Of a stretch of 41,345 nt of DNA, positions 4,245 to 20,195 are shown in pieces (the stretch's first letter is position 1; the number at the start of each line of letters is the position of its first letter). The stretch comes from a virus: IMG/VR virus record IMGVR_UViG_3300038527_000002, one strand, 5' to 3'. The notes beneath the pieces are model-generated. The model did no database searches. It was not told the DNA's origin and worked only from the letters and a program-made list of their open reading frames with translations. Made by a program: the position numbers and the translations under genes.

Positions 4245-4252
4245 CGATTAAA

Positions 4253-4860: not shown

Positions 4861-4874
4861 TTATAATAAGGAAT

Positions 4875-8582: not shown

Positions 8583-8613
8583 AGCTATATTAATTGTAAT
8601 CTGTTATCGGCAA

Positions 8614-9363
8614 TTAAAGAGAGCCGAACCACTCATTCATAGTTTTACCACTTAGCCACCAATCCATTGCTTTTTGACTATCGCAATTTGAAAGTTGAGT
8701 TAGTTTCCATTGTGGATTGTTATTCATTCCTTTTTGAATTGCTTTTTTGATTGCGTGATAATATTTTGGATATAATTCAAATTCTTTTTCACGGTGTCTT
8801 TTTCTACTCACTAAAGGGCAACCGACACACCCAAGCCGTTTTAATCCTAAATTATAAGCTGGTGCAAGTTGTATGTTATTTTCTTTAATGTAATTCCAAA
8901 TATCTTCATCAGTCCAATCGTATAATGGATAAATGTGTTGGCTTCCTTTTTGCCATTTACGATTATCACATTGTATGTAATCTCGCCCTTGCCTTTTTCT
9001 ACTTTCAGCACTTCTTACTCCTTCAAAAACTATTTTACCAACACTTCCATATTCTTTTAGCCTTTCACAGCAATAACGATTCAACCTTGTTGGTAATCCT
9101 TTTTTTTCAACCAATTCATAAAAAGTCAGTTTCGGTTGCAGTATTTCAGTATGAGGGTAATTTTCCCTTATATGTCTTATAGTTCCTATCGGGTCAATAG
9201 TCGTATTCGTGTAATAGCTTTTGTATTCTATTCCACTTTTTTGCAATAAGCAGTCAAGAACCGCACTATCTTTTCCACCGCTATTTCCAGCATATAATTG
9301 TTGTCCTTTATAGCTTTCAGCTACTTTTCGGATAAATTCGATTGATTTTTCTTCTAAATTCAT
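8614..9363 (-). CDS. PAPS reductase / DndC-like PP-loop ATPase family protein (candidate nucleic-acid modification enzyme)
   Basis: PP-loop SGGKDS (..AGNSGGKDSAVLD..), a CC-x3-K motif (RYCCERLKEYG) and a C-terminal Cys pair (LGCVGCPL), as in the phage PAPS-reductase/DndC/IbrA-like family. Confidence 0.75.
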   Translation of the reverse strand: MNLEEKSIEFIRKVAESYKGQQLYAGNSGGKDSAVLDCLLQKSGIEYKSYYTNTTIDPIGTIRHIRENYPHTEILQPKLTFYELVEKKGLPTRLNRYCCERLKEYGSVGKIVFEGVRSAESRKRQGRDYIQCDNRKWQKGSQHIYPLYDWTDEDIWNYIKENNIQLAPAYNLGLKRLGCVGCPLVSRKRHREKEFELYPKYYHAIKKAIQKGMNNNPQWKLTQLSNCDSQKAMDWWLSGKTMNEWFGSL

Positions 9364-9378
9364 AAATAAAGATTAAAA

Positions 9379-9477
9379 GCCGATAACACGGGCTATATTT
9401 AATTTTTGCCTAATAAAGTTTCGTTCAAATGATGGAGTTTCTGCAAGGCAAAAACTAAAACATAGCCCCATCGTTAT
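9379..9477 (-). repeat. Structured intergenic repeat H1 (long imperfect hairpin with GATAAC/GTTATCGGC-type ends, followed by a U-tract in sense orientation)
   Basis: Arms 9390-9410 and 9447-9468 are complementary. The two transitions give G:U only on the minus (sense) strand. The sense 3' end is GTGTTATCGGCTTTTAATCTTTATTT followed by the ATG of 8614..9363. Confidence 0.65.
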
Positions 9478-9819
9478 TCATAAAACACCATTTTCCGTCA
9501 CTTCCTCCCTTATCTCAAAATAATAGTGCCCTCCGACTCTCCACATATTATAAGACATAAAGCAATTGGTTAGGTATATGTTGCCTATTATTGCCCGTAT
9601 AATATCCTCATTCCCGCTCCACCCTAAGGTATGTAGCTCCAATCTTCTTGTGCCTTTATATTTTCTCGTTAAACGATACCCTATACTCCCGTAATACCAA
9701 GTCTCGCAAATCAACTTAACAAAGTCCATTATCGGCATTGTGTCTCCCTTGTAATCTCGGATAAATTGCAAGTATTCCTCAGTGGGATATCCAGAATTGT
9801 CTAATAGTCTCTCATTCAT
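9478..9819 (-). CDS. Hypothetical protein
   Basis: 113-aa ORF on the early strand. Confidence 0.6.
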   Translation of the reverse strand: MNERLLDNSGYPTEEYLQFIRDYKGDTMPIMDFVKLICETWYYGSIGYRLTRKYKGTRRLELHTLGWSGNEDIIRAIIGNIYLTNCFMSYNMWRVGGHYYFEIREEVTENGVL

Positions 9820-10017
9820 TTCTACTCTTTATCATACATAGCCGACTTGTCAGCTTAATACTGACTTTCCAACTATATCACATAACGTATAATATCGCTT
9901 CCACTACCATGATTATACGCAATAACGTACAATATTACGTGCGAAAAGTGTGTAAAATGTCCATTATTCTGTACGAAAAGTGTGTTTTGTGTGCAAAATA
10001 ACATCAACACTATTCCA
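9820..10017 (-). promoter_or_regulatory. 198-nt non-coding spacer with two pairs of direct repeats and a near-consensus -7 box (candidate internal promoter/operator region)
   Basis: cgaaaagtgtgt at 9943-9954 and 9975-9986. ataacgta(t/c)aatat at 9883-9896 and 9923-9936. The sense-strand TTATTTTG (plus-strand 9995-10002) differs by one base from TAnnTTTG. Confidence 0.4.
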
Positions 10018-10218
10018 TTACATCAACTCGTCAACATCAATGTGATACTCTTCGAGCAGCTTGTTAATCTTTTCCCACGCTGGCCTATAATCATAGTCGG
10101 TGTGCTTGAAATCCCGCCAACCGTTCATAACCAGCTCCCAAATAAAATTAGCCATATCGTCAGCTTTCGACCAACGATTAATCTCTTTCGGGTCTTCGGA
10201 TATAAATACTGCTTTCAT
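10018..10218 (-). CDS. Hypothetical protein
   Basis: 66-aa ORF with an ATGA-type overlap to the downstream gene. Confidence 0.55.
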   Translation of the reverse strand: MKAVFISEDPKEINRWSKADDMANFIWELVMNGWRDFKHTDYDYRPAWEKINKLLEEYHIDVDELM

Positions 10219-11216
10219 GCCGGATAATGTTTCTTGTCGATAAATCTACGGTTTATTACCTCAAATTCCCCTGAGGCATCACGCTCCGCCCGGGCAAAGC
10301 CCAGGTTCCAATTGTTCATCGGGTTATAACGCGGGTGCAAATGGCAAAGGCAGCCTATTGTCCACGAGCCATAAGCCTTGCCGTTAATGTTCTGCCGAAA
10401 GACACTCTGCGAAACGTGAGAGTGTGCCGAAAGGACATTATCAAACGTCTTATTTAGCCTGTTGTAGGCTATGTGAACGCCTCCTCCATAATATTCGTGC
10501 CCGTGAATAATGTTTAGCTTACCAAAATGAATATGCTGCCAATCATGGATAATATCTACCGTTGAGCGGTCAAACATCAGATAATCGGAATAAGTGGCGA
10601 AGTCTAACTCGAAGAATCTGTCTTTGATAAACTTTTCCCTTCTTATGTCGTGATTACCCATTTTTAGGAAAACCTTGCCAAACGTATCTTGCAGGATTTG
10701 GAGAACATCAACGCCCCATTCCTTTTCATCCATTACTTTATCAATAGTTAGCGGGTCTTTCGAGAATTTTGAGAATTGGTAAAAGTCCATAAAATCCCCG
10801 TTAATGATAACCGAATCACATCCGTGTTTTACCCCGTCTTCTATTGCTGCCATTACAGCCCATTTCTCCCAAAAGATGGAATGTAGGTCAGCAATAATCA
10901 AAGGCTTTTTGTACTGTTTTGGTATGATAAACGGCTCCCCTGTGATCTCCTCGTTATACCCATTAGAAACAAGGGCGAAACGGCTGGCTATGTCGCTATA
11001 TTTCTCGTAAAAATCCCCCTTTCCTTTCGATTGAGTGATCACCCGAATATAGGTTCGCACCGCCTCTACGTCCTCGAATAGGTCGGGATGCTCTGCCGAT
11101 ATAACCTTTGCGATAAACTTCTTCGAGTACCCACAATGGTTTTTTATCCCAAGCTCGATATACTTTTCTATATACCCTTTTACAAGGTCAATCTTTGTAC
11201 GGTTCGTTTGTTTCAT
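10215..11216 (-). CDS. Calcineurin-like metallophosphoesterase (Mre11/SbcD- or Ser/Thr-phosphatase-like)
   Basis: Ordered motifs DLH (IIADLHS), GD (NGDFMD), GNHD (MGNHDI), GH (IHGHEY) and HxH-like (SAHSHV). Confidence 0.8.
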   Translation of the reverse strand: MKQTNRTKIDLVKGYIEKYIELGIKNHCGYSKKFIAKVISAEHPDLFEDVEAVRTYIRVITQSKGKGDFYEKYSDIASRFALVSNGYNEEITGEPFIIPKQYKKPLIIADLHSIFWEKWAVMAAIEDGVKHGCDSVIINGDFMDFYQFSKFSKDPLTIDKVMDEKEWGVDVLQILQDTFGKVFLKMGNHDIRREKFIKDRFFELDFATYSDYLMFDRSTVDIIHDWQHIHFGKLNIIHGHEYYGGGVHIAYNRLNKTFDNVLSAHSHVSQSVFRQNINGKAYGSWTIGCLCHLHPRYNPMNNWNLGFARAERDASGEFEVINRRFIDKKHYPA

Positions 11217-11352
11217 AGTATAAGTGTATTGTGTGCCCGTGTTTATCTTCGAGCATTTTGCGCACCTTCTCTATGTCATCGGTCTTTATATCAACCCTTA
11301 TGTTCTGAATTGTGCCGTTCTTAACAGCATAGCGGTAGATTCTATATTTCAT
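11188..11352 (-). CDS. Small hypothetical protein (54 aa), below the ORF-track cutoff
   Basis: Hand translation MKYRIYRYAVKNGTIQNIRVDIKTDDIEKVRKMLEDKHGHTIHLYYETNEPYKD. It fills the 125-nt gap between flanking genes. Confidence 0.4.
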   Translation of the reverse strand: MKYRIYRYAVKNGTIQNIRVDIKTDDIEKVRKMLEDKHGHTIHLYYETNEPYKD

Positions 11353-11641
11353 TTTTCAGGAATTTAAGAAACATCCCCTCTTTAAGAACAGCGCAAAGTG
11401 CCATTCCCGTGCCCATAAAATTCGCGTCTGGAATATTTGTTCCCTCTCCGTTCCTTAAACATTGCTTCAAGATATAAAGATGCTTGAAAAATACCAATAC
11501 CTTGTACCCGTTGATCGTTTCGGCCATTCCCTCCGTTCCGTTACGAAAGAGGATATAAATCCCCTGCTTTCGTGGCTCAAGGCTCTTTATTGCGCTTGGG
11601 CGGACATTCTCATAATCGCCCGTGATGTACTTAATTGTCAT
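11342..11641 (-). CDS. Hypothetical protein
   Basis: 99-aa ORF in the early gene train. Confidence 0.55.
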   Translation of the reverse strand: MTIKYITGDYENVRPSAIKSLEPRKQGIYILFRNGTEGMAETINGYKVLVFFKHLYILKQCLRNGEGTNIPDANFMGTGMALCAVLKEGMFLKFLKNEI

Positions 11642-11921
11642 AGACCTTTTTTATTAAATTGATAGTTTCTGTTGTCATCATCTGGTCGGGGGTGAATCTT
11701 AAAACCCTCCAACCCATTGACACGGCAAGGTTATATTTTTCCATATCCGATATATACCCCTTTGGTCGTGTGTGCCTTCCGTTTGTCCATGCTCCGCCCT
11801 CCTGCTCTATGGCTATTTTTTTGGAGGGAATAGCGTAATCGAATCGGAATCTTCGTATCGGGTGGAATCGGTACTCTCGTTCACACTCGCCGAACATTTG
11901 CTTTAAGAGTGTTGCAAACAT
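11631..11921 (-). CDS. DUF559/Vsr-like PD-(D/E)XK endonuclease-fold protein
   Basis: ..RFRFDYAIPSKKIAIEQEGGAW...GWRVLRFTPDQ.. matches the D..(E/D)xE/K core of DUF559/Vsr-like nucleases. The start was moved to Met 11921 to limit overlap with the upstream gene. Confidence 0.5.
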   Translation of the reverse strand: MFATLLKQMFGECEREYRFHPIRRFRFDYAIPSKKIAIEQEGGAWTNGRHTRPKGYISDMEKYNLAVSMGWRVLRFTPDQMMTTETINLIKKVYDN

Positions 11922-12127
11922 AGCTCTGTAAATATATCCGTTCGGTAGTGTTCGTTCAGTAGGTCGGCAATAAACCGCGCCATTCCATTCTCTCCGCATT
12001 CAACGTAAGAGTGTGCAAGGTCAATCGTTTCCTGCACATTTTTATCGTTCAATATGTTTATTAATTCCTCTGATTTGTCTATCCAGGGTTGGAATAATTC
12101 GTGAATGTATTGTTCAATCGTTTTCAT
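11903..12127 (-). CDS. Hypothetical protein
   Basis: ORF 11903..12178. The ATG at 12127 (MKTIEQYIHELF..) avoids a 41-nt overlap with the upstream gene. Confidence 0.5.
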   Translation of the reverse strand: MKTIEQYIHELFQPWIDKSEELINILNDKNVQETIDLAHSYVECGENGMARFIADLLNEHYRTDIFTELCLQHS

Positions 12128-12137
12128 AGTTTTAGAT

Positions 12138-12437
12138 TTAAACTCCGAAATATCTGAATATTTCCTCAGACTTCGCAAATTCCTTAACTTTAATTATAAT
12201 ATTTAACATTCCAGACCTGAAATCCTTGTCGTTGTCGTAGCGATTATGACATGCTCTACACATACGAACAATGTTTTTCGGCTCGGTATAATACTGTGGG
12301 AAGATGCTTTTTGGCAGCAGGTGAGCCGCATCTCCCGTGCAAGGTTGTCCGCAAATGAAGCAGACTTTGGGTAAATTGCGCTTTATCTCGGCAATCGCTC
12401 TGTTCTTTTCCGCCTGTGATTTTGATACCCGTTTCAT
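12138..12437 (-). CDS. HNH / NinG(Rap)-like endonuclease
   Basis: CFICGQPCTGDAAHLLPKS...N..RMCRACHNRYD shows Cys pairs and a His-Asn-His arrangement typical of HNH/NinG proteins. Confidence 0.5.
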   Translation of the reverse strand: MKRVSKSQAEKNRAIAEIKRNLPKVCFICGQPCTGDAAHLLPKSIFPQYYTEPKNIVRMCRACHNRYDNDKDFRSGMLNIIIKVKEFAKSEEIFRYFGV

Positions 12438-12499
12438 AAGCTAAAAAGTAGGGCAAGCAAAAGAATGATGATGATGATGATAATGTACAGCCGTTTCAT
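12434..12499 (-). CDS. Micro-ORF, 21-aa hydrophobic peptide (MKRLYIIIIIIILLLALLFSL)
   Basis: ATGA overlaps at both ends. The poly-Ile run is encoded by the (ATG)5 microsatellite at 12465-12479 read on the minus strand. Confidence 0.3.
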   Translation of the reverse strand: MKRLYIIIIIIILLLALLFSL

Positions 12500-12615
12500 A
12501 TCAAAGATATTAGCGTGATTAATATTGCCGCCATAACAGTACCGAAGACCACTATTACAAAGCAGCCCAAAAGAAATCGGCGGTTGTTTTCTTCGTTTTT
12601 ATACCATTCTTTCAT
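12496..12615 (-). CDS. Micro-ORF, 39-aa single-TM peptide
   Basis: MKEWYKNEENNRRFLLGCFVIVVFGTVMAAILITLISLI, with ATGA overlaps at both ends. Confidence 0.35.
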   Translation of the reverse strand: MKEWYKNEENNRRFLLGCFVIVVFGTVMAAILITLISLI

Positions 12616-12824
12616 AGCGATATGTCTAAGTTTACATCGAAGATTAAGTCCACAAGCTCACCGTTTTCGTGAACCTCTGTTGTGTCAACATTTACATAAA
12701 TCATCTGAATCTCTTTGTTGTTCTTGTAAAAACCCGAAAGGATTTCACCGATTTTTCTTTCTACCTCTTTTTTTTCTTTTAGCAGGCCTTGCACTGTCTT
12801 CGTAGATTCCTTCTCTGTGTCCAT
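12612..12824 (-). CDS. Hypothetical protein
   Basis: 70-aa ORF preceded by the repeated leader 12825-12907. Confidence 0.55.
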   Translation of the reverse strand: MDTEKESTKTVQGLLKEKKEVERKIGEILSGFYKNNKEIQMIYVNVDTTEVHENGELVDLIFDVNLDISL

Positions 12825-12907
12825 AGTTGCGTTTATTTAATTAACATTGGTTTAATATTGTTTTGCCCTGTTAGTGGGCTTTGAGCCTTATTGCTATTAT
12901 TTGGGTG
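12825..12907 (-). repeat. Repeated intergenic leader, family B copy 1
   Basis: ~80% identical over ~85 nt to 16783-16874 (ttgcgtttatttaattaa..gtttaatatt..tttgccctg..hairpin..ttattg.tattatttgggtgtt). It fills the whole spacer upstream of an ATG. Confidence 0.7.
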
Positions 12908-13264
12908 TTATGCCCCATTGTAAGAAAACAGCGCACAATAAAAATCTGCCTCAGTTTCTATATCATTGACATAACCACCATCCCATCCGAGATGTAAATT
13001 TATACTTACTTTATCTGTTTTATTAAGTTTATCACAATCCCCTTCATTCACTGAATGCTCATAAAATGTTGTTTGTTTCCAAAATTTGCATAATGAACAA
13101 CGGGGCATAACACCATGTATAGCCAATAAAGGCTGTTGCGGTGTTTCAAGTGTATTGCTTTCTATTTTCTTTGTCATATCTTGATAAGTTTTCGTTATTA
13201 ATCCTTTACTGGCCATACATTTAACGTTAGCGGTAATGCTGCCAAAATCGTTCAATAGCAACAC
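12908..13264 (-). CDS. Hypothetical Cys-rich protein
   Basis: 118-aa ORF. The alternative start at 13216 (MASKGL..) would remove the overlap with the upstream gene. Confidence 0.55.
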   Translation of the reverse strand: MLLLNDFGSITANVKCMASKGLITKTYQDMTKKIESNTLETPQQPLLAIHGVMPRCSLCKFWKQTTFYEHSVNEGDCDKLNKTDKVSINLHLGWDGGYVNDIETEADFYCALFSYNGA

Positions 13265-13526
13265 ACTCTATACTAAATTCATATTTGTTGTTCATTTTTA
13301 TCCACGCCCACCCTTTTTGTATTTTTAATATTTCTAATGTGTCTATTTGTGGCTCAAAGGGGTTTAATGTGTCGTATTTAATCCATATTTGCCCAACCTC
13401 GCATTTAGGCGAAAAAACATAGCTTCTATTACTTGAAGGTAATTCGCAAGAATAAAAAGCACATACCGCTAACAAGCAATATAAAAAATGCCTGTTTCGG
13501 TGCAAATTTGAAAGTAAGTGTTTCAT
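13227..13526 (-). CDS. Putative lipoprotein / secreted small protein
   Basis: N-terminus MKHLLSNLHRNRHFLYCLLAVCAFYSC is hydrophobic and followed by Cys. Its 5' end lies inside repeat H2'. Confidence 0.5.
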   Translation of the reverse strand: MKHLLSNLHRNRHFLYCLLAVCAFYSCELPSSNRSYVFSPKCEVGQIWIKYDTLNPFEPQIDTLEILKIQKGWAWIKMNNKYEFSIECVAIERFWQHYR

Positions 13527-13598
13527 ATTAAATTATTTAAAATTTGATAAATTTGTTCTTTGAATACGGCACTTTTCATATTGCCAACCGTTATCGGC
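13466..13598 (-). repeat. Structured intergenic repeat H2' (expanded copy downstream of the ASCH-like gene)
   Basis: Arms gcaatataaaaaatgcc (13476-13492) and ggcacttttcatattgc (13568-13584), with terminal gttatcggc at 13590-13598 abutting the stop at 13602. Homologous to H2. Confidence 0.6.
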
Positions 13599-13601
13599 AA
13601 C

Positions 13602-14036
13602 CTAAAAGACAGTGCTACCATCATCATTTGCAGTTAACTCAAAGTTTTTCCAAAATATTATTTTCCCGAAATATTGTTTATCTGGATTGTCAAACCATAA
13701 TTTCATTTGCGACCAATTATCAAATCCATCGTTTTCAGCTAAAGCATTCAGTTCGTTTTCTGACTTTAAAATAATATCATCGCCAATATATACAATGTCA
13801 TTTTGCCAATCTTCAGGCACGGCAAAATCCATTCTAATAGTTTCAACCCGTGAGCATTCTCCGATTCCAAATTGATAAGGTTTTGTTTTTCCTCTCGTAT
13901 TTCGTGGATTACCTAACCAAAAGTGAATTTTATTTCCAACTTTCCATCGGTTAGTTTTATCATCTCGAATAGTGTGTACTTTTATTCCACTTCGTATTCG
14001 GTTTCTAAATTCTGTTTTTGAAAATGTTAAAAGCAT
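13602..14036 (-). CDS. ASCH-domain-like protein
   Basis: N-terminal ..GIKVHTIRDDKTNRWKVGNKIHFW.. resembles the ASCH beta-barrel signature. This is a weak call made by eye. Confidence 0.45.
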   Translation of the reverse strand: MLLTFSKTEFRNRIRSGIKVHTIRDDKTNRWKVGNKIHFWLGNPRNTRGKTKPYQFGIGECSRVETIRMDFAVPEDWQNDIVYIGDDIILKSENELNALAENDGFDNWSQMKLWFDNPDKQYFGKIIFWKNFELTANDDGSTVF

Positions 14037-14079
14037 TATTTAAGTTTTTAAGTGAATAATTAAATTAAGAATAAAGGCA

Positions 14080-14176
14080 GCCGATAACACGCAATATAAA
14101 AAATTGGCTATCAAACTGCGGTGGTAAATTGAAAGTGACTACAAAGCCAACTTTTCATATTGCCAGCCGTTATTGC
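14080..14176 (-). repeat. Structured intergenic repeat H2 (upstream of the ASCH-like gene)
   Basis: gccgataac at 14080-14088. Arms 14091-14109 and 14145-14163 are complementary with two G:U pairs on the sense strand only. gttattgc at 14169-14176. Confidence 0.65.
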
Positions 14177-14247
14177 ATATAATTCGCTCAATAAATGATA
14201 CATCATACGCAAAAGCATATAAAAAACCACACACAAATATCAAAATT

Positions 14248-14469
14248 CTAGCATTTCCTGTAAATCGAAGCCTCACTATTTGAGCAGGTATAGTTTACAA
14301 GCCCTTTGGCTCGCAATTCCCTCAGTTTCCTTAGTATCGTTCCATCCATACACATCGGACGGCCTAAGATTTGTTTCACTTTGCTACAAAACAGCGGGGC
14401 ATAAATCACATTCTCCGATTCTTCAAAAGCCTTTAGCGTGGCTTTGCTGACGCTCATTGTTCCTTTCAT
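14248..14469 (-). CDS. Hypothetical protein (possible winged-helix)
   Basis: 73-aa ORF with ..ILRKLRELRAKGLV.. Confidence 0.5.
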   Translation of the reverse strand: MKGTMSVSKATLKAFEESENVIYAPLFCSKVKQILGRPMCMDGTILRKLRELRAKGLVNYTCSNSEASIYRKC

Positions 14470-14692
14470 AGTTGAGTTGTTTTGGTGGTTGTGTTGAGTT
14501 AAATATTCTTCTTACTAAATATCCCCTAAGAATTGATGCTATCGTAAATACAAATGTAATTATTATATTTTGATGAAAATTTACAGGTATTCCCATTATT
14601 GGATAAATTAATAGCTGTATTAAAAGGCTTATAACAAAACCAGATATTGTATTTGTAATGCTTTCAATTAGGCTGTTTTTCTTTGTCTGCAT
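14423..14692 (-). CDS. Small membrane protein (two TM helices)
   Basis: ISGFVISLLIQLLIYPIMGI and IIITFVFTIASILRGYL. One-nt overlap with the methyltransferase stop. Confidence 0.55.
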   Translation of the reverse strand: MQTKKNSLIESITNTISGFVISLLIQLLIYPIMGIPVNFHQNIIITFVFTIASILRGYLVRRIFNSTQPPKQLNYERNNERQQSHAKGF

Positions 14693-15489
14693 TAGAATAA
14701 TGTAATATAATCTTTTTCTAATTCCGTTTTAGCATAGCCAATTTCTTTAATCTCCCGTTTAATGAGCCTATTCTTTTCTATCCATTTTGTTGCTAATTGA
14801 TAGAACTCTTTTTTAATTTCAAATCCATAAGCTTTTCGCCCTAAATTTTCGGCAGCTATTAAGGTTGAACCACTACCAGCCACAGGGTCAATTACAACAT
14901 CGCCGGGGTCTGTAAATATTTCAATTATTCGCTCCAATAGTTTTACGGGTTTTTGGGTTGGGTGTATTTTTTCGCTTTCATTATCTCGTGGCCAGTCTAT
15001 ACAATTAAATATCATTTTGCCATCATTCCTAAACTTCGGCAGTTTGTCTCTATAGAGTATTAGGCCATATTCGCAATTACCGACTATTTTCATATTTGCC
15101 TTTAAAACCTGCGCTGAAAAGTTTTTGCGAAAGACTAAATTTATATAATTATTCAGCCCATATCTTTTTGCCAACTCAATAAAATAGAATTGCTGTTCAA
15201 ATTCACAAAACAAAATCATGCAAGGTGCTTCTTTTTTGCGCTTTGGTTCTGGCATTAACATTGTGCTGCAAAAGTGCATAAATTCGGCAGGTCTAAAATC
15301 AATGTCGGTATCAAAAAATGATTTCCCCGCCTTATCGCTTTCCCCATTCTTATTATCCCCGTCTTTATACCAAGCAGGATTAGAGGCATACGCATTATTA
15401 CCAAGATTGTATGGCACGTCAGCTATTATTAATTGCGCTTTTGGTAAATTATATCTCTTAAAATTTTGGAAATGGTCACGTATAATCAT
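14692..15489 (-). CDS. Orphan DNA methyltransferase (beta-class N6A/N4C, PF01555-like)
   Basis: Catalytic motif IV DVPY (IIADVPYNLG) precedes the AdoMet motif I (VIDPVAGSGSTLIAAENLGRKAYGFE). No adjacent restriction gene was recognised. Confidence 0.85.
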   Translation of the reverse strand: MIIRDHFQNFKRYNLPKAQLIIADVPYNLGNNAYASNPAWYKDGDNKNGESDKAGKSFFDTDIDFRPAEFMHFCSTMLMPEPKRKKEAPCMILFCEFEQQFYFIELAKRYGLNNYINLVFRKNFSAQVLKANMKIVGNCEYGLILYRDKLPKFRNDGKMIFNCIDWPRDNESEKIHPTQKPVKLLERIIEIFTDPGDVVIDPVAGSGSTLIAAENLGRKAYGFEIKKEFYQLATKWIEKNRLIKREIKEIGYAKTELEKDYITLF

Positions 15490-15516
15490 TTTAAAAGGTC
15501 TAAACCAAAGAGTTCA

Positions 15517-16782
15517 TTAAAATGGTACATTTTCTGGTAGTTCATCTAAGTTATAAAATAATGTCTGTTCGGGCTTAAAGCCAAGAATGAATTTTGTTAT
15601 CCCCACGTTTCGCCCCTTTGCAAAGTTGATTAACGCTGTCCCCTGAGTTGAGGTAGAAGCGAATGGAGCGGGATAAGAACGCCCATAAACCTCTGGCCTA
15701 TAAAGAAGCATAACATTATCTGCCGCCTCGGCAATCTGACCGCTTTCTCGCAAATCCGACAAAGCTGGAGGATTATCACCGTTTTGTCTATTCAACTGAC
15801 TTAAAGCAGTAATTCCAATATTTAATTCCTCGGCAAGGTTTTTTAATCTATGAGCCATAGACCCAATAAACTGTTCCTTACTACTTACTTTGCTTGTCAT
15901 CGGTATTGTCTGTAAGTAATCAATAAAAACAATACTTATCCCATACTTAAACACCATTTTTCGAATTGACTGAACGATAGTATCAATGCTCGAAGTGGAG
16001 CGGTCATCAAAATATATTTCTAAGTCTTGAATTTTACCGACTCCTTTGTCAAATTCCTTAATCATCTCATTGCTCATTGAGCGGTAAAGCATCTCTTTCG
16101 AGGATAGTCCGGAAACGGAGCTTATAATTCTGCTTGTCAATTGTACATCGTTCATCTCTAAAGAATAAAAAGCTACCTTTGCACCGTGTGAGGCCACGTT
16201 TTTTGCTATATTAAGAGCAAAAGAGGTCTTACCCATACTTTCCCTTGCGGCAATAATTGTAAAATCCCCAGGGTGCAAACCGCCAGTATGACGGTCAAGT
16301 TCCGTGAATCCCGTCTTAACGCCACGTGTCTTGCCTTTTATGTTGTCGTTTATGATTCCTATCACGTCTTCTGTTGCATCTTTCAGGGTACGGATTTTTT
16401 CTTCCCTGTTCGTCAGTATCTGCTCAATCGAACAGTTTACCTTTGCGATCATCTCCTCAATCGAATCATCGGGTTTCAAGCTTTCAAGCGTGCTAATGAG
16501 TTTATTTTTCTGCGCTGCCTCGTGAATGACCCTTGCGTGTGGATAAACATCCAGCGTCATCGGTAGGTCAACGATTGCAGACACGGGAATATCGGTTTCA
16601 TAGCGAATAAGAATAATATCGGGTTTTTCGCCCCTGTCGATAATCTTTTTTATCCCTCTGAATATCTCCCTGTTTACCGCTGTGGAAAAGCAATCTTCGG
16701 TTAAGAAGCTCACTTCTTCCCAGCAATCAGATTTTAAGAGAGAGCCTAAAACAAGTTCTTCGCTGTCGGGGTATGTTATCAT
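15517..16782 (-). CDS. dnaB: Replicative DNA helicase (DnaB family)
   Basis: ..GFTELDRHTGGLHPGDFTIIAARESMGKTSFALNIA.. (Walker A), ..IVFIDYLQ.. (Walker B-like), ..ALSQLNR...LSDLRESGQIEQ-like.. Confidence 0.85.
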   Translation of the reverse strand: MITYPDSEELVLGSLLKSDCWEEVSFLTEDCFSTAVNREIFRGIKKIIDRGEKPDIILIRYETDIPVSAIVDLPMTLDVYPHARVIHEAAQKNKLISTLESLKPDDSIEEMIAKVNCSIEQILTNREEKIRTLKDATEDVIGIINDNIKGKTRGVKTGFTELDRHTGGLHPGDFTIIAARESMGKTSFALNIAKNVASHGAKVAFYSLEMNDVQLTSRIISSVSGLSSKEMLYRSMSNEMIKEFDKGVGKIQDLEIYFDDRSTSSIDTIVQSIRKMVFKYGISIVFIDYLQTIPMTSKVSSKEQFIGSMAHRLKNLAEELNIGITALSQLNRQNGDNPPALSDLRESGQIAEAADNVMLLYRPEVYGRSYPAPFASTSTQGTALINFAKGRNVGITKFILGFKPEQTLFYNLDELPENVPF

Positions 16783-16874
16783 TGCGTTTATTTAATTAAT
16801 GTTTGTTTAATATTACTTTGCCCTGCTTGTGCAGGTTTATGGATATTGTTATTATTTTGGTGTTGTACGCAATT
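16783..16874 (-). repeat. Repeated intergenic leader, family B copy 2 (upstream of the dnaB-like gene)
   Basis: Homologous to 12825-12907. The internal hairpin differs by compensatory changes (cctgc-ttgt-gcagg versus gccc-tgttagt-gggc). Confidence 0.7.
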
Positions 16875-17123
16875 TTATTGCACTTCCTTTTGGCAGGATA
16901 TGCAATATGGTGTGCCATCTTCGTCATAGTCAAGTCCTTTAGCTCTCGAACAAGTGCAATAAAACTGTTCGCTTCGCCCCACAACATCAGGTTGGCAAAA
17001 TAATTTTACTGCCTCATCTACTATTGTTTCAGCATATCCTTCAGGAGATGCCTCTCTCCAATAATCAAAATCTTTTAGTTGTTCTATTACAAACTTTTTA
17101 AACGCTTCTTTCTTTGTTTCCAT
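16875..17123 (-). CDS. Hypothetical protein with C-terminal Cys cluster (zinc-ribbon-like)
   Basis: 82 aa with ..FYCTCSRAKGLDYDEDGTPYCISCQKE. Confidence 0.55.
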   Translation of the reverse strand: METKKEAFKKFVIEQLKDFDYWREASPEGYAETIVDEAVKLFCQPDVVGRSEQFYCTCSRAKGLDYDEDGTPYCISCQKEVQ

Positions 17124-17190
17124 TGTATTATTTTTTAGTGTTTCAAATCCGTAAAATTACATTCGCCAACCTGCGGTACGTTATCGGCAA

Positions 17191-17844
17191 TTAAGACCAT
17201 AGCTTTACGGCAGTTTCATGTTTCGATTTTAAGTCCTTTACTTTTTTGCTCGCATAAGATAATGCCATTCCGTGAGGTCGCTCTTTTGGGTTGTCTTTTA
17301 AAAATTGATGATATTCTTTTGCCTCTTCGAGTTGTATCTCAAAAAATTCTAAACTTTCAGGCATTGAAAGGTCGATTTTATTTGCCATACTTTCCCAATA
17401 TGCAGCTCTCTCAAGGTAGGCATCAGCTTTTTTATATGATTCCATTGCATTACTCATTCTTTTCCAGTTTCGTTCAATTAATGCACGGTGTCTTTTTTCG
17501 CTGTGGTGTCCTACTTTTATGGGTTCTGCAAGTGCCAAAAAGTCTTTACCTTCATTGCTTTTTTCTTGCCAATCATTACCTTTTTTATTCGCATTGTCAG
17601 CCCAATTTTTTAGCTTTTCAAATTTTCTTTTTGCTCTTTCTTGGTTATTATAACCATCAGCACGAGTAATCGAATAGCAATACATAGGTTTTTCTTTTGT
17701 TCCTGTATAGCCTACAAAATTGTGAACTATACATTCGTTTTCTTTTCCGTACTTGGTTTTAACTATAATAGTATCACCTTTTTCGTGTTTTTCTTCGCAT
17801 TGTGCCACAAATACATTCGGGCAATATTTTTTGTAAGTATTCAT
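17191..17844 (-). CDS. Hypothetical protein, DUF3560-like (by memory of the ..VGHHSEKRHR.. motif)
   Basis: 217 aa with ..PIKVGHHSEKRHRALIERNWKRM.. The gene is flanked by GTTATCGGC/GCCGATAAC repeat ends. Confidence 0.4.
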   Translation of the reverse strand: MNTYKKYCPNVFVAQCEEKHEKGDTIIVKTKYGKENECIVHNFVGYTGTKEKPMYCYSITRADGYNNQERAKRKFEKLKNWADNANKKGNDWQEKSNEGKDFLALAEPIKVGHHSEKRHRALIERNWKRMSNAMESYKKADAYLERAAYWESMANKIDLSMPESLEFFEIQLEEAKEYHQFLKDNPKERPHGMALSYASKKVKDLKSKHETAVKLWS

Positions 17845-17878
17845 ATTATTTTGATATTTATTTGATTAAAAAATAAAA

Positions 17879-17958
17879 GCCGATAACACAGTATATATGT
17901 CATGTATTGCCGCAGGCGCAACACAAGCCACGCCACATATACCCATTCGTTATAGGGC
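17879..17958 (-). repeat. Structured intergenic repeat H3
   Basis: gccgataac at 17879-17887 and gttatagggc at 17949-17958. Inner stems are gtatatatgt/acatatac and tgtattgc/gcaacaca (an A:C on plus equals G:U on sense). The sense 3' end is GTGTTATCGGCTTTTATTTTTT. Confidence 0.6.
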
Positions 17959-17960
17959 AT

Positions 17961-18206
17961 TTAAAAACTCCCATACAATGCTTCACCGATATAACCTCCG
18001 CCGTAATAATGACTATCTTTTGTCTTATCTGCAATTTTCTTTTCAGCTTTTTTAATACCTTTAAGTAAATCTTCGTAACCTACAACTGTCCACGACTTTT
18101 CACCGTCAACCTGTACCCACACTTCATCAATTTTGCCATCTTTACAATGAAATTGAAGCTTAACATCATTGTCTTTGCATTTGTAATTTGATTTCATTTC
18201 TGTCAA
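17961..18206 (-). CDS. Hypothetical protein
   Basis: 81-aa ORF. Its stop abuts the H3 end. Confidence 0.55.
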   Translation of the reverse strand: MTEMKSNYKCKDNDVKLQFHCKDGKIDEVWVQVDGEKSWTVVGYEDLLKGIKKAEKKIADKTKDSHYYGGGYIGEALYGSF

Positions 18207-18227
18207 AAAAACGCCCTATAACAATGT

Positions 18228-18264
18228 ATAACAGACAATTGCGGGCGTGTTGCAATGCTGTTAT
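18228..18264 (-). repeat. Short hairpin H4 with ATAACAG/CTGTTAT ends (degenerate member of the H family)
   Basis: ataacagacaattgc-gggcgtgtt-gcaatgctgttat. An X-like gccctataac lies at 18213-18222. Confidence 0.45.
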
Positions 18265-18337
18265 TCGCTTTCTATTTTAGTTTATTGCAGTTCGACAGGA
18301 AAGCGTTTCAAAGTCCGCAACTGCTGTTATACTAACG

Positions 18338-18649
18338 TTATCTTACTAACCTCCCCCTTACAGTAAACCCTAAAAACCCGTCAAATTCCATTGCGGATTT
18401 TTCCATTTCTGCAAGCTCTTCTGCTGTTACGATTTTCAGCTCCTCATCGCTCAGCTCGATAACGTATTCTTGGCTTTCGGTAATTCTTTCAATATGCCGC
18501 TCAATAAGCAGCACTATTCTTTTTATCCCGAAGAGAAGTCCAATTTCGTATTCAAAATCTTCGGAGCGCTCGATTGGGGTCAGTTTTGCCTTTTGTTCCG
18601 CTTCCATTTGTTTTGCTTGCAAAAGCAAGCCTTGTAGTTCTTCTTTCAT
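18338..18649 (-). CDS. Hypothetical acidic protein
   Basis: 103-aa ORF. Confidence 0.55.
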   Translation of the reverse strand: MKEELQGLLLQAKQMEAEQKAKLTPIERSEDFEYEIGLLFGIKRIVLLIERHIERITESQEYVIELSDEELKIVTAEELAEMEKSAMEFDGFLGFTVRGRLVR

Positions 18650-18709
18650 AGGTGGTATGTTATAAGTTGTTTTATATGTATTATTTACCGTTGTTTCTTG
18701 TCTTGTTTT

Positions 18710-18865: not shown

Positions 18866-18891
18866 TTTGATTTTGACTTAAAAACGTTATC

Positions 18892-19101
18892 TTACCAATT
18901 AGTTTGTTCTTTTAAAGGATAAACAGGATCTTTATTAGACTTAATGTAACAGTTTTTACTACCAAAAGCATTTTTTTTAATATTTTCCGCACCTTCTTTG
19001 GTAATAGCTTTACCAATTATTTTCCCTGAAGCACTTCTTACTGTATATTTAAACATAATTAATAATTTAAAAGTTAGTCGAATTAAGTTAAGTGTTAGCA
19101 A
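18892..19101 (-). CDS. Hypothetical small protein
   Basis: 69-aa ORF. An alternative start at 19056 (MFKYTVRSASGK..) is possible. Confidence 0.5.
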   Translation of the reverse strand: MLTLNLIRLTFKLLIMFKYTVRSASGKIIGKAITKEGAENIKKNAFGSKNCYIKSNKDPVYPLKEQTNW

Positions 19102-19104
19102 TCA

Positions 19105-20118: not shown

Positions 20119-20195
20119 ACAAACAAAGTAAAGTACAATATTCCAAACAAACAAGCGTTTTGTGCTCAAGTTAGTACGCTATTGTGTTAAATTAG

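What the first reader, a model, noticed from the sequence alone, without database searches (positions are those of the whole stretch)
8603..18346. Family of long structured intergenic repeats with conserved GATAAC...GTGTTATCGGC ends that bracket accessory genes in the early arm
Four full copies lie between minus-strand genes: H1 9379-9477, H2 14080-14176, H2' 13466-13598 and H3 17879-17958. There is also a short copy, H4 18228-18264. In sense (minus) orientation each reads (GCC)GATAACG.. / 15-20-nt arm / loop / complementary arm / GTGTTATCGGC. A T-rich tract follows (for example GTGTTATCGGCTTTTAATCTTTATTT-ATG), then the next gene's ATG within 15-45 nt. The inner arms differ completely in sequence between copies but stay complementary. 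Examples are GGGCTAT..TTTTTGCC in H1, GCAATAT..TTGGCT in H2 and GTATATATGT plus TGTATTGC in H3. Every transition mismatch I found is A:C on the plus strand, which is G:U on the sense strand. This points to a strand-specific RNA or ssDNA structure. Half-sites GTTATCGGCAA(plus) abut the stop codons of three genes with identical spacing: 8603-8613 then TTA, 13590-13601 then CTA, 17180-17190 then TTA. As a result the PAPS-reductase-like gene, the ASCH-like gene and the DUF3560-like gene are each enclosed by inverted GTTATCGGC / GCCGATAAC ends. Degenerate (G)ATAACG motifs also follow or overlap the stops at 9478, 17961, 18338 and 18892. The 12-mer acgttatcttac recurs at 18335-18346 and 18884-18895. 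Possible readings are outsized intrinsic terminators delimiting moron-like cassettes, recombination or mosaic boundary sequences, or MITE/attC-like mobile cassette ends. I know of no described equivalent.
Basis: seen in the sequence. Interest (0 to 1): 0.7.

Follow-up and report, generated by a model that had tools for sequence, protein, structure and literature searches.

The report
Hairpin-bounded mobile gene cassettes in phages
The repeats are real: they are strand-specific DNA/RNA hairpins that join single-gene cassettes in the early operon of a Bacteroidota-type phage, and the same cassettes turn up in unrelated phages cut exactly at a four-base TAAC core, much as integron cassettes behave, although no recombinase is encoded nearby.

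Summary
The window holds six minus-strand hairpins of one family, at 18214-18345, 17879-17957, 14080-14177, 13465-13598, 13103-13234 and 9379-9481. Across 35 copies, TAACG and TGTTA are invariant at the hairpin base. The inner stem covaries strongly, with G·U wobbles at three fixed positions, so only the gene-sense strand folds well.

The "degenerate" 5' halves are not decayed copies. The 5 nt after GTTA of one hairpin pair with the 5 nt before TAAC of the next hairpin. Each gene is therefore bracketed by its own 9-bp inverted box, and a hairpin's own flanks do not pair.

Comparative data show mobility. Hairpin+gene units (PAPS-reductase-like, DUF3560, ASCH-like) occur in otherwise unrelated phage contigs, with homology ending at TAAC on both sides. 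The ASCH-like gene is 433-435 of 435 nt identical in six further contigs (five of them in at least three unrelated phage backbones) and 430/435 in a seventh. Near-isogenic strains lack two cassettes, with the junction GCCGATAAC|ACCC.

Best reading: attC-like or IS200-like recombination sites of a phage cassette array. A circularised unit would rebuild a perfect hairpin base. No integrase or transposase is encoded in the genome, so the enzyme is unknown. The main rival is a PeSL-like regulatory hairpin that acts as a recombination hotspot. Rfam and the literature searches gave no equivalent.

The parts
18214..18345 (-). Hairpin H4. The 5' TAACG core is in sense GTAAGATAACG and the 3' TGTTA core in sense TGTTATAGGGC. 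It carries nested second R boxes.
   Evidence: CM R1 scores 40.5 bits, E 1.4e-7, and this copy was not in the training set.
18213..18222 (-). 5' box of the 81-aa cassette (sense GTTATAGGGC).
   Evidence: Exact reverse complement of 17949-17958. Bracket statistic.
17961..18206 (-). Cargo ORF of 81 aa, function unknown.
17879..17957 (-). Hairpin H3. The bases just 5' of its TAAC (sense GCCCTATAAC, + strand 17949-17958) are the 3' box of the 81-aa cassette.
   Evidence: CM 51.9 bits. Folds at -29.6 kcal/mol as the sense strand against -17.0 as the plus strand.
17191..17844 (-). Cargo gene with a DUF3560 domain. It moves together with H3.
   Evidence: Pfam E 3e-35. The unit 17954-17177 is 94% identical to L041 and 88.6% to L038, with unrelated flanks.
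17180..17188 (-). 3' box of the DUF3560 cassette (sense GCCGATAAC, 2 nt after the stop codon).
16977..17188 (-). Possible decayed hairpin that starts at the 17188 box.
   Evidence: Weak CM hit only, 19.2 bits, E 0.019.
16782..16872 (-). Second copy of the roughly 90-nt 'array-end' element, just upstream of dnaB. It is preceded by the sense sequence GCGTACAAC.
14080..14177 (-). Hairpin H2 (short class). Its 3' box is GTGTTATCGGCTGCC.
   Evidence: CM 81.8 bits on the minus strand against 18.8 bits on the plus strand.
13602..14036 (-).
   Evidence: The identical protein is indexed in 187 blocks of the collection. The gene is 433-435/435 nt identical in six further contigs and 430/435 in a seventh.
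13590..13598 (-). 3' box of the ASCH-like cassette (sense GCCGATAAC). It also forms the 5' base of H2'.
   Evidence: The right-hand homology boundary falls here in L025, L165, L166, L168-L172 and L291.
13465..13598 (-). Hairpin H2' (long class) with the 3' box GTTAGCGGT. An ATG lies in its loop at 13526.
   Evidence: CM 73.5 bits. Sequence shown.
13227..13526 (-). Cargo ORF of 99 aa with a lipoprotein-like N-terminus encoded by the 3' arm of the hairpin.
   Evidence: Absent from L172 and L291.
13226..13234 (-). 3' box ACCGCTAAC (sense), complementary to the 5' box at 13465-13473.
13103..13234 (-). Its 3' box is GTTATGCCCC.
   Evidence: CM 61.6 bits. Folds at -33.3 kcal/mol.
12908..13264 (-). 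Cargo ORF of the third cassette of this array. Its real start is probably the ATG at 13117.
12907..12916 (-). 3' box GGGGCATAAC (sense). Its TAA is the stop codon, and it is complementary to 13102-13111.
12820..12906 (-). 'Array-end' element ACCCAAATAAT...TTAATTAAATAAACGCAA, directly after the last TAAC.
   Evidence: The same element follows different last cassettes in L025, L166, L172, L290 and L291.
9379..9481 (-). Hairpin H1. Its 3' box is GTGTTATCGGCTTTTAA.
   Evidence: CM 66.9 bits. Fold z-score -4.5.
8614..9363 (-). Cargo gene, PAPS-reductase-like. It moves together with H1.
   Evidence: Pfam E 9e-19. The unit 9477-8603 is 88% identical to L101 501-1376, with unrelated flanks.
8603..8611 (-). 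3' box of the PAPS-reductase-like cassette (sense GCCGATAAC).
   Evidence: The Logan contig L139 starts exactly here.
18884..18895 (-). Lone GTAAGATAACGT (sense) after a stop codon. It is a direct repeat of 18335-18346.
   Evidence: No hairpin is attached and the repeat is unexplained.

Best explanation
The elements are the junction and recombination sites of single-gene mobile cassettes stacked head to tail in the early (minus-strand) operon of a Bacteroidota-type phage.

Anatomy of one unit, read on the gene-sense strand: TAAC | G, a 3-4 nt bulge, a 15-25 bp stem with a variable loop, T-GTTA-xNNNN, a leader, one ORF, then N'N'N'N'x'-TAAC. The 9-nt box after the ORF is the reverse complement of the box after the hairpin. 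If the unit is circularised, the two boxes meet and extend the hairpin into a perfect basal helix. When the unit is integrated, the helix is split, so each hairpin in an array carries the 3' box of the previous cassette on its 5' side.

Shown:
- the conserved, strand-specific structure;
- the bracket rule;
- units that recur in unrelated phage backbones with homology ending inside TAAC on both sides;
- near-isogenic strains that differ by whole units;
- a common 'array-end' sequence after the last TAAC.

Inferred: units move by strand exchange within the TAAC core on a folded single strand. This would resemble integron attC recombination, or IS200/IS605 'insert 3' of a tetranucleotide' transposition. 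Each inserted unit would supply a new TAAC for the next, which would build arrays. The enzyme is not identified and is not encoded next to the arrays. It would have to act in trans (from the host, a co-infecting element or an unrecognised phage protein). A second function of the hairpin in the mRNA is not excluded.
For: 1. Structure.
- TAACG and TGTTA are invariant in 35 of 35 copies.
- 13 of 15 inner pairs change on both sides, and 87% of cells in the inner helix are paired (83.2% over all 25 pairs). The covariation score is 0.443, against 0.143 shuffled (0/500) and at most 0.134 slid. RNAalifold gives the same helix.
- G·U wobbles sit at three fixed columns: 35/35, 26/35 and 26/35.
- Only the sense strand scores with the covariance model: 41-82 bits against 11-20 bits on the plus strand for four of the six hairpins, and none up to E=10 for H3 and H5.

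2. Bracket rule.
- Flanks of consecutive hairpins match 4.39 of 7 positions on average. 33 of 46 pairs match at least 5, and 14 of 46 at least 6.
- A hairpin's own flanks match 2.24 of 7, with 0 of 63 reaching 6.
- Random pairs match 2.22 of 7, with 0.2% reaching 6.

3. Mobility.
- H1+PAPS: window 9477-8603 = L101 501-1376 at 88% identity.
- H3+DUF3560: window 17954-17177 = L041 at 94% and L038 at 88.6%. Flanks are unrelated right up to |ATAACG and right after GCCGATAAC|.
- H2+ASCH: 433-435 of 435 nt identical in L165, L166, L168, L169 and L171, and 430/435 in L170.
- H2+ASCH has four different left flanks, all ending just before TAAC (TGCAA|, GCCGC|, TCAGC|, GGTGC|), and at least eight different right flanks, all starting just after GCCGATAAC.

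4. Presence/absence.
- L172 matches the window at 100% on the left flank and 99.3% on the right, and it lacks 13589-12911 (both cassettes). L291 has the identical left flank and about 70 nt of identical array-end element after the junction, and it lacks both cassettes too.
- In both, the junction reads GCCGATAAC|ACCCAAATAAT.
- At the same slot, L025 carries one methylase cassette with its own box pair, GTTATACGC/GCGTATAAC. L165 carries a different single hairpin plus a 73-aa ORF.

5. Spread.
- The model finds more than 90 hairpins in about 30 phage contigs, always on one strand per contig. One contig has 16 hits in 12 kb.
- It finds none at E<=0.001 in about 110 contigs that are not family members: about 98 chance-match contigs from the same scan, 8 contigs fetched for a relative of the 113-aa window protein, and 2 bacterial contigs.

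6. Cargo is typical accessory material: N6/N4, Dam and C5 methylases, MazG-like, an exoribonuclease-like protein and many unknowns.

7. Published attC logic is the same. AAC/GTT is the only conserved sequence, recombination takes place in AAC on a folded single strand, and the start of a cassette is complementary to its own R box (PMC5027507).
Against: - No tyrosine or serine recombinase, HUH/Y1 transposase or DDE enzyme was found in the window. This rests on Pfam and PHROG scans plus precomputed Pfam for the whole early arm. None appeared in the 6-10 kb contexts of other arrays either.
- No protein other than cargo is shared by the array-bearing contigs.
- No circular junction was seen. An exact search for the predicted H2-ASCH circle junction in JGI metagenome contigs gave 0 hits.
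- One left boundary lies at TGTTA instead of TAAC (L169/L171) and one lies near the ATG (L170). Not every exchange is therefore at the same core.
- Several backbones encode SSAP, exonuclease and NinB modules. These could drive homologous exchange at the widely shared H2-type hairpin and leader.
- G·U wobbles fit an RNA structure at least as well as a DNA structure.
- TAAC/GTTA invariance is partly built into the way copies were collected. Distant copies in OP947161.1 show TATC and TAAT variants.
- Metagenome contigs can be chimeric at shared repeats.
Confidence: 0.55

Rival explanations
1. PeSL-like regulatory cassette. The hairpin would be primarily an RNA element of the polycistronic early transcript, acting as a processing site, stabiliser, insulator or terminator and/or as the translation-initiation context of the downstream gene. 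Because it is conserved between co-infecting phages, it would serve as a landing pad for homologous or microhomology-mediated exchange by the phages' own SSAP/exonuclease/NinB systems. On this reading mobility is a by-product, not a dedicated site-specific reaction.
For: - The structure is specific to the sense strand and has conserved G·U pairs.
- The hairpins always lie 5' of an ORF in the direction of transcription.
- Long-class hairpins carry the start codon in the loop.
- H2-type hairpins plus leader are 74-92% identical across phages while the ORF behind them differs, so they could act as homology arms.
- The L169/L171 boundary lies in the shared GTGTTATCGGCTGCC+leader.
- ERF or a RecE-like exonuclease or NinB is present in the window, L165, L039, L057 and OP947161.1.
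- There is precedent in T4-like phages (PMC2839356, PMC4122927).
Against: - At most junctions the two partners share only TAAC(G), that is 4-5 nt. This is far below what annealing proteins are generally understood to need (my own knowledge, not tested here).
- The inner arms differ between copies, so there is no long repeat within a genome. This is unlike PeSLs.
- The rule that a gene's two boxes are complementary while a hairpin's own flanks are not is not predicted by this model, unless long-range mRNA pairing across 300-800 nt is under selection.
- No sigma-70-type promoter or U-tract terminator was flagged at the hairpins.
- Core genes of the same operon lack the hairpins.
Confidence: 0.3
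2. Plain oversized intrinsic terminators, or generic intergenic palindromes of the REP type, that merely coincide with gene boundaries and play no part in gene movement.
For: Hairpins lie between genes. Subtype B is followed by TTTT (H1 and H3).
Against: - The terminator scan finds none of them, and such sites are not enriched (11 against 13.1 expected).
- Subtype A has no T-tract.
- Up to 16 consecutive copies lie inside one operon. If each terminated transcription, the genes downstream would be silenced.
- Homology breakpoints and presence/absence junctions map to the core.
- The bracket rule holds.
Confidence: 0.05
3. Remnants or non-autonomous derivatives of a classical transposon (MITE-like, with terminal inverted repeats GTTAxNNNN/NNNNxTAAC), mobilised by a DDE transposase encoded elsewhere.
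For: Each ORF is flanked by a perfect 9-13 bp inverted repeat. The L169/L171 unit corresponds to box-to-box only.
Against: - The inverted repeats differ between units apart from GTTA/TAAC, whereas transposase-bound ends are normally conserved.
- There are no target-site duplications beyond the shared TAAC.
- In 6 of 8 independent contexts the upstream hairpin travels with the gene, outside the 'TIRs'.
- No transposase was found.
Confidence: 0.07

Closest known systems
Integron gene cassettes and their attC sites, including integrase-less attC clusters (CALINs)
   Same: - Imperfect hairpins of 75-137 nt (attC sites are of similar size, from my own knowledge) in which only AAC...GTT at the base is conserved and the rest is kept by structure.
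- A variable terminal loop and unpaired bases next to the basal box.
- One strand folds better than the other.
- Arrays of co-oriented single-ORF units, and occasional ORF-less units (L039 8285-8297).
- The first bases of a unit are complementary to its own distal box, so a circle would rebuild the site.
- Exchange points map inside the AAC-containing core.
- A common sequence sits at one end of the array, like attI (PMC5027507).
   Different: - There is no IntI gene in the genome or next to any array seen.
- The box is NNNNxTAAC with an invariant G·T next to it, not RYYYAAC.
- There are no obvious extrahelical bases in the attC pattern. The bulge lies on the same arm as AAC.
- The hairpin lies 5' of its ORF, and the folding strand is the coding strand, the opposite of the usual integron orientation.
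- The host is a phage early operon.
- The strict-pattern scan of 185,579 bacterial and archaeal genomes gave 23 hits, none resembling the family.
PeSLs (promoter-early stem-loops) of T4-like phages (Arbiol 2010, PMC2839356; Comeau 2014, PMC4122927)
   Same: Small intergenic stem-loop motifs in regions rich in non-essential phage genes. Insertions, deletions and replacements between related phages are bounded by them. Mini-circles have been proposed or shown as vehicles.
   Different: PeSLs combine a strong sigma-70 promoter with a terminator, and the authors attribute the exchanges to recombination between PeSL copies. Here only 5+5 nt are invariant, the arms covary, no promoter or terminator signature was found, and each gene has its own complementary box pair.
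IS200/IS605-family single-strand transposons and their hairpin ends (PATE/REP relatives)
   Same: The elements are strand-specific and guided by hairpins. They insert immediately 3' of a fixed tetranucleotide without target duplication. Excision is precise and restores the donor, as in GCCGATAAC|ACCC in L172 and L291. The intermediate is a circular single strand.
   Different: No TnpA (Y1 HUH) gene was found. There is one hairpin per unit rather than one at each end. The unit itself ends in the same tetranucleotide it targets. The cargo is an ordinary accessory gene.
Phage morons
   Same: Single accessory genes inserted between core genes, with their own flanking signals. The cargo is of the same type, for example methylases.
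   Different: Morons are usually described (my own knowledge) as a gene with its own promoter and terminator, with no conserved structured boundary and no defined junction core.

Membership tests
Integron cassette / attC | An integron integrase (IntI, a tyrosine recombinase) lies next to the array or in the same replicon. | tested here: not met
   No recombinase domain was found by Pfam or PHROGs in the window ORFs scanned, nor in the precomputed Pfam of the whole early arm. None was found in the contexts of other arrays.
Integron cassette / attC | An imperfect hairpin whose only conserved sequence is 5'-AAC-3' / 5'-GTT-3' at the base (the R box). | tested here: met
   TAAC and GTTA are invariant in 35 of 35 copies while the rest covaries. 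The caveat is that collection was biased towards these motifs.
Integron cassette / attC | R-box consensus RYYYAAC / GTTRRRY. | tested here: not met
   The box reads NNNNxTAAC, with x = A in 29 of 35 copies where Y would be expected.
Integron cassette / attC | Extrahelical bases on the arm opposite AAC, plus an unpaired central spacer, which together set strand choice. | tested here: inconclusive
   There is a 3-4 nt bulge directly after TAACG, on the same arm as AAC, and three fixed G·T positions. This is not the attC pattern described in PMC5027507.
Integron cassette / attC | Crossover inside AAC, with the start of a cassette complementary to its own distal R box. | tested here: met
   Boundaries map within TAAC at 4-nt resolution: five of seven distinct left junctions and all twelve right-junction comparisons. 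Bracket complementarity is 4.39/7 against 2.2/7.
Integron cassette / attC | The ORF lies upstream of its own attC on the non-folding (top) strand. | tested here: not met
   The hairpin that travels with a gene is the one 5' of it, in 6 of 8 independent contexts; the downstream hairpin travels with it in 0 of 8. The folding strand is the coding strand.
PeSL (T4-like phages) | A strong sigma-70-type early promoter forms part of the motif. | tested here: not met
   The consensus scan finds no promoter at the hairpins and no enrichment (56 against 49 expected). Bacteroidota-type promoters are not covered by the tool.
PeSL (T4-like phages) | Copies similar enough in sequence to recombine homologously. 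| tested here: not met
   Mean column identity is 45%, and only 10 columns are invariant. Exception: H2 and H2' share about 27 nt in the 5' arm and about 14 nt in the 3' arm.
PeSL (T4-like phages) | Indels and replacements between close relatives are bounded by the motif. | tested here: met
   Window compared with L025, L165, L172 and L291.
IS200/IS605 single-strand transposon | The element encodes a Y1 HUH transposase (TnpA), or a family member does. | tested here: not met
   No such domain was found in the window or in the contexts examined.
IS200/IS605 single-strand transposon | Subterminal hairpins at both ends. | tested here: not met
   There is one hairpin per unit. The other end is a 9-nt box.
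IS200/IS605 single-strand transposon | Insertion 3' of a fixed tetranucleotide, with no target duplication and with precise excision. | tested here: met
   All units follow TAAC. The empty site in L172 and L291 reads GCCGATAAC|ACCC.
Intrinsic terminator | A GC-rich stem directly followed by a U-tract. | tested here: not met
   None of the six hairpins is flagged. Subtype A is followed by GGCTGCC.
Any Rfam family | A score at or above the family's gathering threshold. | tested here: not met
   Only tRNA-Met is found at the gathering threshold. At E<=1, only two chance miRNA hits far below threshold appear.

The most novel reading that the evidence does not exclude
A phage-borne cassette system that is independent of integron integrases. 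Single genes, each with an attC-like hairpin, would excise as single-strand circles and insert after any TAAC. Each unit ends in TAAC, so arrays would build themselves. The units would be mobilised by a recombinase that has not yet been recognised, encoded by a phage, a host or a satellite, and would be shared across a whole community of Bacteroidota phages as a common pool of accessory and anti-defence genes.
Probability: 0.35. Interest if true: 0.9.

Novelty: new variant of a known kind. Interest (0 to 1): 0.8.

Why it matters
Phage genomes are mosaics, yet there are few cases where the seams are defined to the base and tied to a specific structure. Here the seams are visible. A 4-nt core at the foot of a covarying hairpin delimits units. 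One such unit is found nearly unchanged (430-435 of 435 gene nucleotides) in several unrelated phages.

If the units move by a dedicated reaction, this would be an integron-like gene-sharing system inside virulent-type phage genomes. It would explain how methylases and other counter-defence genes spread so quickly between phages. It would also point to an unknown recombinase that acts on folded single strands, which could be useful as a sequence-independent recombination tool.

Even under the more modest reading, a regulatory hairpin used as a recombination hotspot, the result extends the PeSL idea from T4-like coliphages to an unrelated phage group. It also provides a covariance model with which such cassettes can be annotated.

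Tried and rejected
- Megablast of 8000-19200 and blastn of H2 against 50,697 GenBank phages gave no match. The family is essentially metagenomic. The exception is diverged copies found with the covariance model in OP947161.1.
- The first IMG/VR pattern scan returned mostly chance hits. These were separated by folding and GC content, and later by the covariance model.
- My first automatic hairpin caller was too noisy for the bracket test. It was replaced by the covariance-model coordinates.
- The relative of the 113-aa flank protein (L118/L119) turned out not to be syntenic, so it was no use for empty sites.
- Exact-protein look-ups for the 82-aa and 94-aa flank proteins gave only near-identical genomes, all with the cassettes present.
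- The genome-contig scan with the perfect double-ended pattern gave 23 hits, all GC-rich coding coincidences. There was no bacterial array and no link to an integrase.
- The search for the predicted H2-ASCH circle junction in metagenome contigs gave 0 hits.
- The 15-mer scan for the array-end element was mostly chance; one new true case emerged, L290.
- The search for a protein shared by all array-bearing contigs found only cargo families: methylases, the ASCH-like protein and DUF3560. DnaB was the only other protein in several of them (6 of 26). The DUF559/Vsr-like and HNH proteins of the window are limited to close relatives. Between the two complete genomes, only ERF, TerL and one structural protein are shared.
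- I considered and dropped several other ideas:
  - group I intron or BHB-type RNA splicing, because there is no catalytic core and no second bulge;
  - involvement of the window's DGR reverse transcriptase, because no reverse transcriptase is annotated in OP947161.1;
  - Xer/dif modules, because there is no 28-bp dif-like site;
  - promoters in the loops, because no TAnnTTTG is conserved when judged by eye.
- Literature searches for attC-like or integron-like cassettes in phages found nothing equivalent.

Full report
**What is in the window**

The window is a complete phage genome of about 41 kb. The same genome appears as JGI contig Ga0245815_100042 and in several bioreactor metagenomes. Its large terminase is related to those of Bacteroides, Flavobacterium, Phocaeicola and Cellulophaga phages.

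Genes from about 7.6 to 24.3 kb lie on the minus strand and form an early, replication and recombination arm. This arm encodes ERF, a RecE-like exonuclease, NinB, SSB, a DnaD-like loader, DnaB, a methylase, an HNH-like protein, a DUF559-like protein and a phosphoesterase. It is probably read from a TTGACA-16-TATATT promoter at 24404-24377. No integrase, transposase or HUH protein was found anywhere in the genome.

Exact GTTATCGGC occurs six times, against 0.29 expected. There are three copies on each strand, and together they enclose three minus-strand genes. The hairpins fold significantly better than shuffled sequence, and better as the minus strand than as the plus strand.

A pattern scan of IMG/VR gave mostly chance hits. 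It also gave about 19 AT-rich contigs with obviously related hairpins. A relaxed search showed many more copies inside those contigs.

I aligned 35 copies. On that alignment:
- TAACG at the 5' foot and TGTTA at the 3' foot never vary. This includes an invariant G·U next to the core.
- The inner helix has 15 pairs, and 13 of them change on both sides. 87% of its cells are paired.
- The covariation score is 0.443, against 0.143 for shuffles (0 of 500 reach it) and at most 0.134 for slid controls.
- Two further columns are G·U in 26 of 35 copies.
- RNAalifold predicts the same helix on its own.

A covariance model built from the alignment finds six copies in the window, all on the minus strand. 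They are 14080-14177, 13465-13598, 9379-9481, 13103-13234, 17879-17957 and 18214-18345. The last was not in the training set. Scores are 41-82 bits on the minus strand. On the plus strand, four of the six loci score 11-20 bits and the other two give no hit. Rfam has nothing at these sites.

**The bracket rule**

The arrays in other contigs explain this. The 5 nt that follow GTTA of hairpin n are complementary to the 5 nt that precede TAAC of hairpin n+1.

| Comparison of 7-nt flanks | Mean matches | Pairs with at least 6 matches |
|---|---|---|
| Consecutive hairpins (n and n+1) | 4.39 of 7 | 14 of 46 (33 of 46 have at least 5) |
| A hairpin's own two flanks | 2.24 of 7 | 0 of 63 |
| Random pairs | 2.22 of 7 | 0.2% |

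Each ORF therefore sits between its own 9-bp inverted boxes. The box pairs in the window and in one close relative, read on the sense strand, are:
- GTTATAGGGC/GCCCTATAAC around ORF 17961-18206
- GTTATCGGC/GCCGATAAC around the DUF3560, ASCH-like and PAPS genes
- GTTAGCGGT/ACCGCTAAC around ORF 13227-13526
- GTTATGCCCC/GGGGCATAAC around the next ORF
- GTTATACGC/GCGTATAAC around a methylase in the relative L025

If a unit from TAAC|G to the next TAAC is closed into a circle, the two boxes come together and extend the hairpin by a perfect 9-bp helix.

**Units move**

- The H1+PAPS unit (window 9477-8603) is 88% identical to L101 501-1376.
- The H3+DUF3560 unit (17954-17177) is 94% identical to L041 and 88.6% identical to L038. 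A fourth copy in L112 has a different apical loop.
- In each case the flanks are unrelated right up to |ATAACG and right after GCCGATAAC|.

The ASCH-like protein is the most telling case. The identical 144-aa sequence is indexed in 187 blocks of the collection. It was read in the window lineage, in two close relatives of it (L165, L168) and in at least three unrelated phage backbones.

- The gene is 433-435 of 435 nt identical in L165, L166, L168, L169 and L171, and 430/435 in L170.
- The H2+ASCH unit has four different left flanks, all ending just before TAAC: TGCAA|, GCCGC|, TCAGC| and GGTGC|.
- It has at least eight different right flanks, all starting just after GCCGATAAC.
- There are two exceptions. 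In L169/L171 a different hairpin precedes the same GTGTTATCGGC+leader+gene. In L170 the identity starts near the ATG.

The hairpin that travels with a gene is the upstream one in 6 of 8 independent contexts. The downstream hairpin never travels with it.

**Presence/absence at one slot**

Four states exist downstream of the ASCH-like cassette in close relatives:

| Genome | Content between the ASCH 3' box and the array-end element |
|---|---|
| Window | Two cassettes, 13589-12911 |
| L025 | One methylase cassette |
| L165 | A different hairpin (model hit 6439-6574) and a 73-aa ORF |
| L172, L291 | Nothing |

In L172 and L291 the sequence reads GCCGATAAC|ACCCAAATAAT. L172 flanks are 100% and 99.3% identical to the window. 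In L291 the left flank and the first roughly 70 nt of the array-end element are identical to the window.

The roughly 90-nt element that starts with ACCCAAATAAT follows the last TAAC in all of these genomes, and also in L166 and L290, each time behind a different last cassette. A second copy precedes dnaB in the window, at 16782-16872. It behaves like a fixed array end. Whether it is an attI-like site or simply the leader of the next core gene is open.

**Spread and cargo**

The model finds more than 90 hairpins in about 30 phage contigs, always on one strand per contig. One contig has 16 hits in 12 kb. It finds none at E<=0.001 in about 110 contigs that are not family members. Diverged copies with the same bracket logic occur in the GenBank record OP947161.1. 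A strict-pattern scan of 185,579 bacterial and archaeal genomes gave 23 hits, none of which looks like the family.

Cargo genes include:
- N6/N4, Dam and C5 DNA methylases
- a MazG-like protein
- an exoribonuclease-like protein
- the PAPS-reductase-like, DUF3560 and ASCH-like proteins
- many small ORFs of unknown function

In the window, only accessory genes carry hairpins. Core replication genes abut each other without them.

**How it most likely works**

Three things are shown:
- a conserved, strand-specific hairpin;
- a 4-nt core at which homology between genomes begins and ends;
- a split-palindrome relation between the two ends of each unit.

The simplest account of the third point is that a unit passes through a circular, probably single-stranded, form. 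In that form the hairpin has a perfect base, and the unit recombines within TAAC with another TAAC site. This is the logic of integron attC sites. In those sites AAC is the only conserved sequence, exchange occurs inside it on a folded single strand, and the first bases of a cassette pair with its own distal box (PMC5027507). It is also compatible with IS200/IS605-type insertion 3' of a tetranucleotide. Because every unit ends in TAAC, each insertion creates the next target, which would explain the tandem arrays.

The enzyme is inferred, not shown, and it is not encoded in cis. Searches for a protein shared by array-bearing contigs found only cargo genes, DnaB in six of them and, in several backbones, SSAP/exonuclease/NinB modules. 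A search for the predicted circle junction in assembled metagenome contigs found nothing. That result is weak evidence, because sub-kilobase circles are rarely assembled.

**Rivals**

The main rival is a PeSL-like reading (PMC2839356, PMC4122927). On this view the hairpin is a regulatory RNA element of the early transcript, and being shared among co-infecting phages it acts as a hotspot for homologous or microhomology exchange.

In its favour:
- the G·U signature;
- the constant position 5' of an ORF;
- start codons inside the loops of the long class;
- the widely shared H2-type hairpin plus leader;
- the L169/L171 boundary.

Against it:
- junctions share only 4-5 nt;
- the arms differ within a genome;
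- no promoter or terminator signature was found;
- it does not predict the bracket rule.

The two readings are not exclusive. Plain terminators and DDE-type MITEs fit poorly (see the rival entries).

**Comparison with known systems, and novelty**

The elements work like attC sites but fail membership. There is no IntI, the box consensus is different, the unpaired features are different, and the orientation relative to the ORF is opposite. They resemble PeSLs in their role but not in their anatomy. They resemble IS200/IS605 ends in target logic, but they lack TnpA and a second hairpin.

Five full-text literature searches found no described equivalent. I rate the finding a new variant of a known kind, namely structured-site gene cassettes. 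It could prove categorically new if a dedicated, unknown recombinase is found.

**Caveats**

- The copies were collected with patterns containing TAAC/GTTA, so the invariance of the core is partly circular. Distant copies show variants.
- Metagenome contigs can be chimeric at shared repeats. This could mis-pair left and right contexts, but it would not create the boundaries themselves.
- The E-values of the covariance model are rough.
- The 12-mer direct repeat at 18335-18346 and 18884-18895, and the nested boxes of H4, are not explained.

Noticed in passing
window 3081-6056: A canonical diversity-generating retroelement. The variable repeat is at 4108-4224, at the 3' end of ORF 3081-4244. The template repeat is at 4738-4854. 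The reverse transcriptase (RVT_1) is at 4752-6056, and a small ORF lies between at 4253-4663. All 13 differences between template and variable repeats fall at template adenines.
   Followed up: partly
window 12820-12906 and 16782-16872: A repeated element of about 90 nt (ACC[CA]AAATAAT...small hairpin...AATATTAAAC..TTAATTAAATAAACGCAA) lies directly upstream of the start codons of a 70-aa gene and of dnaB. It always follows the last TAAC of a cassette array. A third copy occurs in the relative L165. It could be an attI-like site or a shared promoter/leader.
   Followed up: partly
window 13526; L025 3820; L057 7200; L039 6166 (oriented coordinates): In the long class of hairpins (about 130 nt) an ATG sits in the loop. 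The ORF reads through the 3' arm and the GTG-TTA of the core (Val-Leu). Several of the resulting N-termini look like lipoprotein signal peptides.
   Followed up: no
window 18335-18346 and 18884-18895: The 12-mer ACGTTATCTTAC (sense GTAAGATAACGT) forms a direct repeat flanking two small ORFs, with no hairpin or 3' box between. It does not fit the unit model.
   Followed up: partly
window 9820-10017: An intergenic region with two copies of ACACTTTTCG[T/C]AC (sense), spaced about 34 nt apart, upstream of gene 9478-9819. It may be an operator or an internal promoter. Homology with the relative L165 ends here, at 9824.
   Followed up: no
window 24377-24404 (-): This is the best sigma-70-like promoter match in the early arm (TTGACA-16-TATATT, 11 of 12). 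It lies in the divergent region between the early and late arms.
   Followed up: no
window 40404-40426 / 40598-40620: A GC-rich 23-nt inverted repeat (91% complementary, 171 nt apart) in the apparently non-coding 39.7-41.3 kb end of the window.
   Followed up: no
window 20195-20266 (-): A tRNA-Met (CAT) gene lies inside the early arm.
   Followed up: no
L139 (Logan SRR2960322 contig), = window 8611-7631: A 981-nt assembly contig begins exactly at GCCGATAAC. This hints that the assembly graph branches at this box in that sample, which would mean cassette polymorphism.
   Followed up: no
L021/L116, L057, L025, L166, L171: DNA methyltransferase genes are the most frequent cargo, with up to four per contig, each in its own hairpin-bounded unit. 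This suggests the arrays stockpile anti-restriction functions.
   Followed up: partly
L150 (Rheinheimera oceanensis NZ_JAGPNM010000004.1) 5839-5932: A very stable 94-nt hairpin with GCCGATAAC...GTGTTATCGGC ends in a gammaproteobacterial chromosome. The covariance model does not hit it. It could be a genuine attC or REP element.
   Followed up: no
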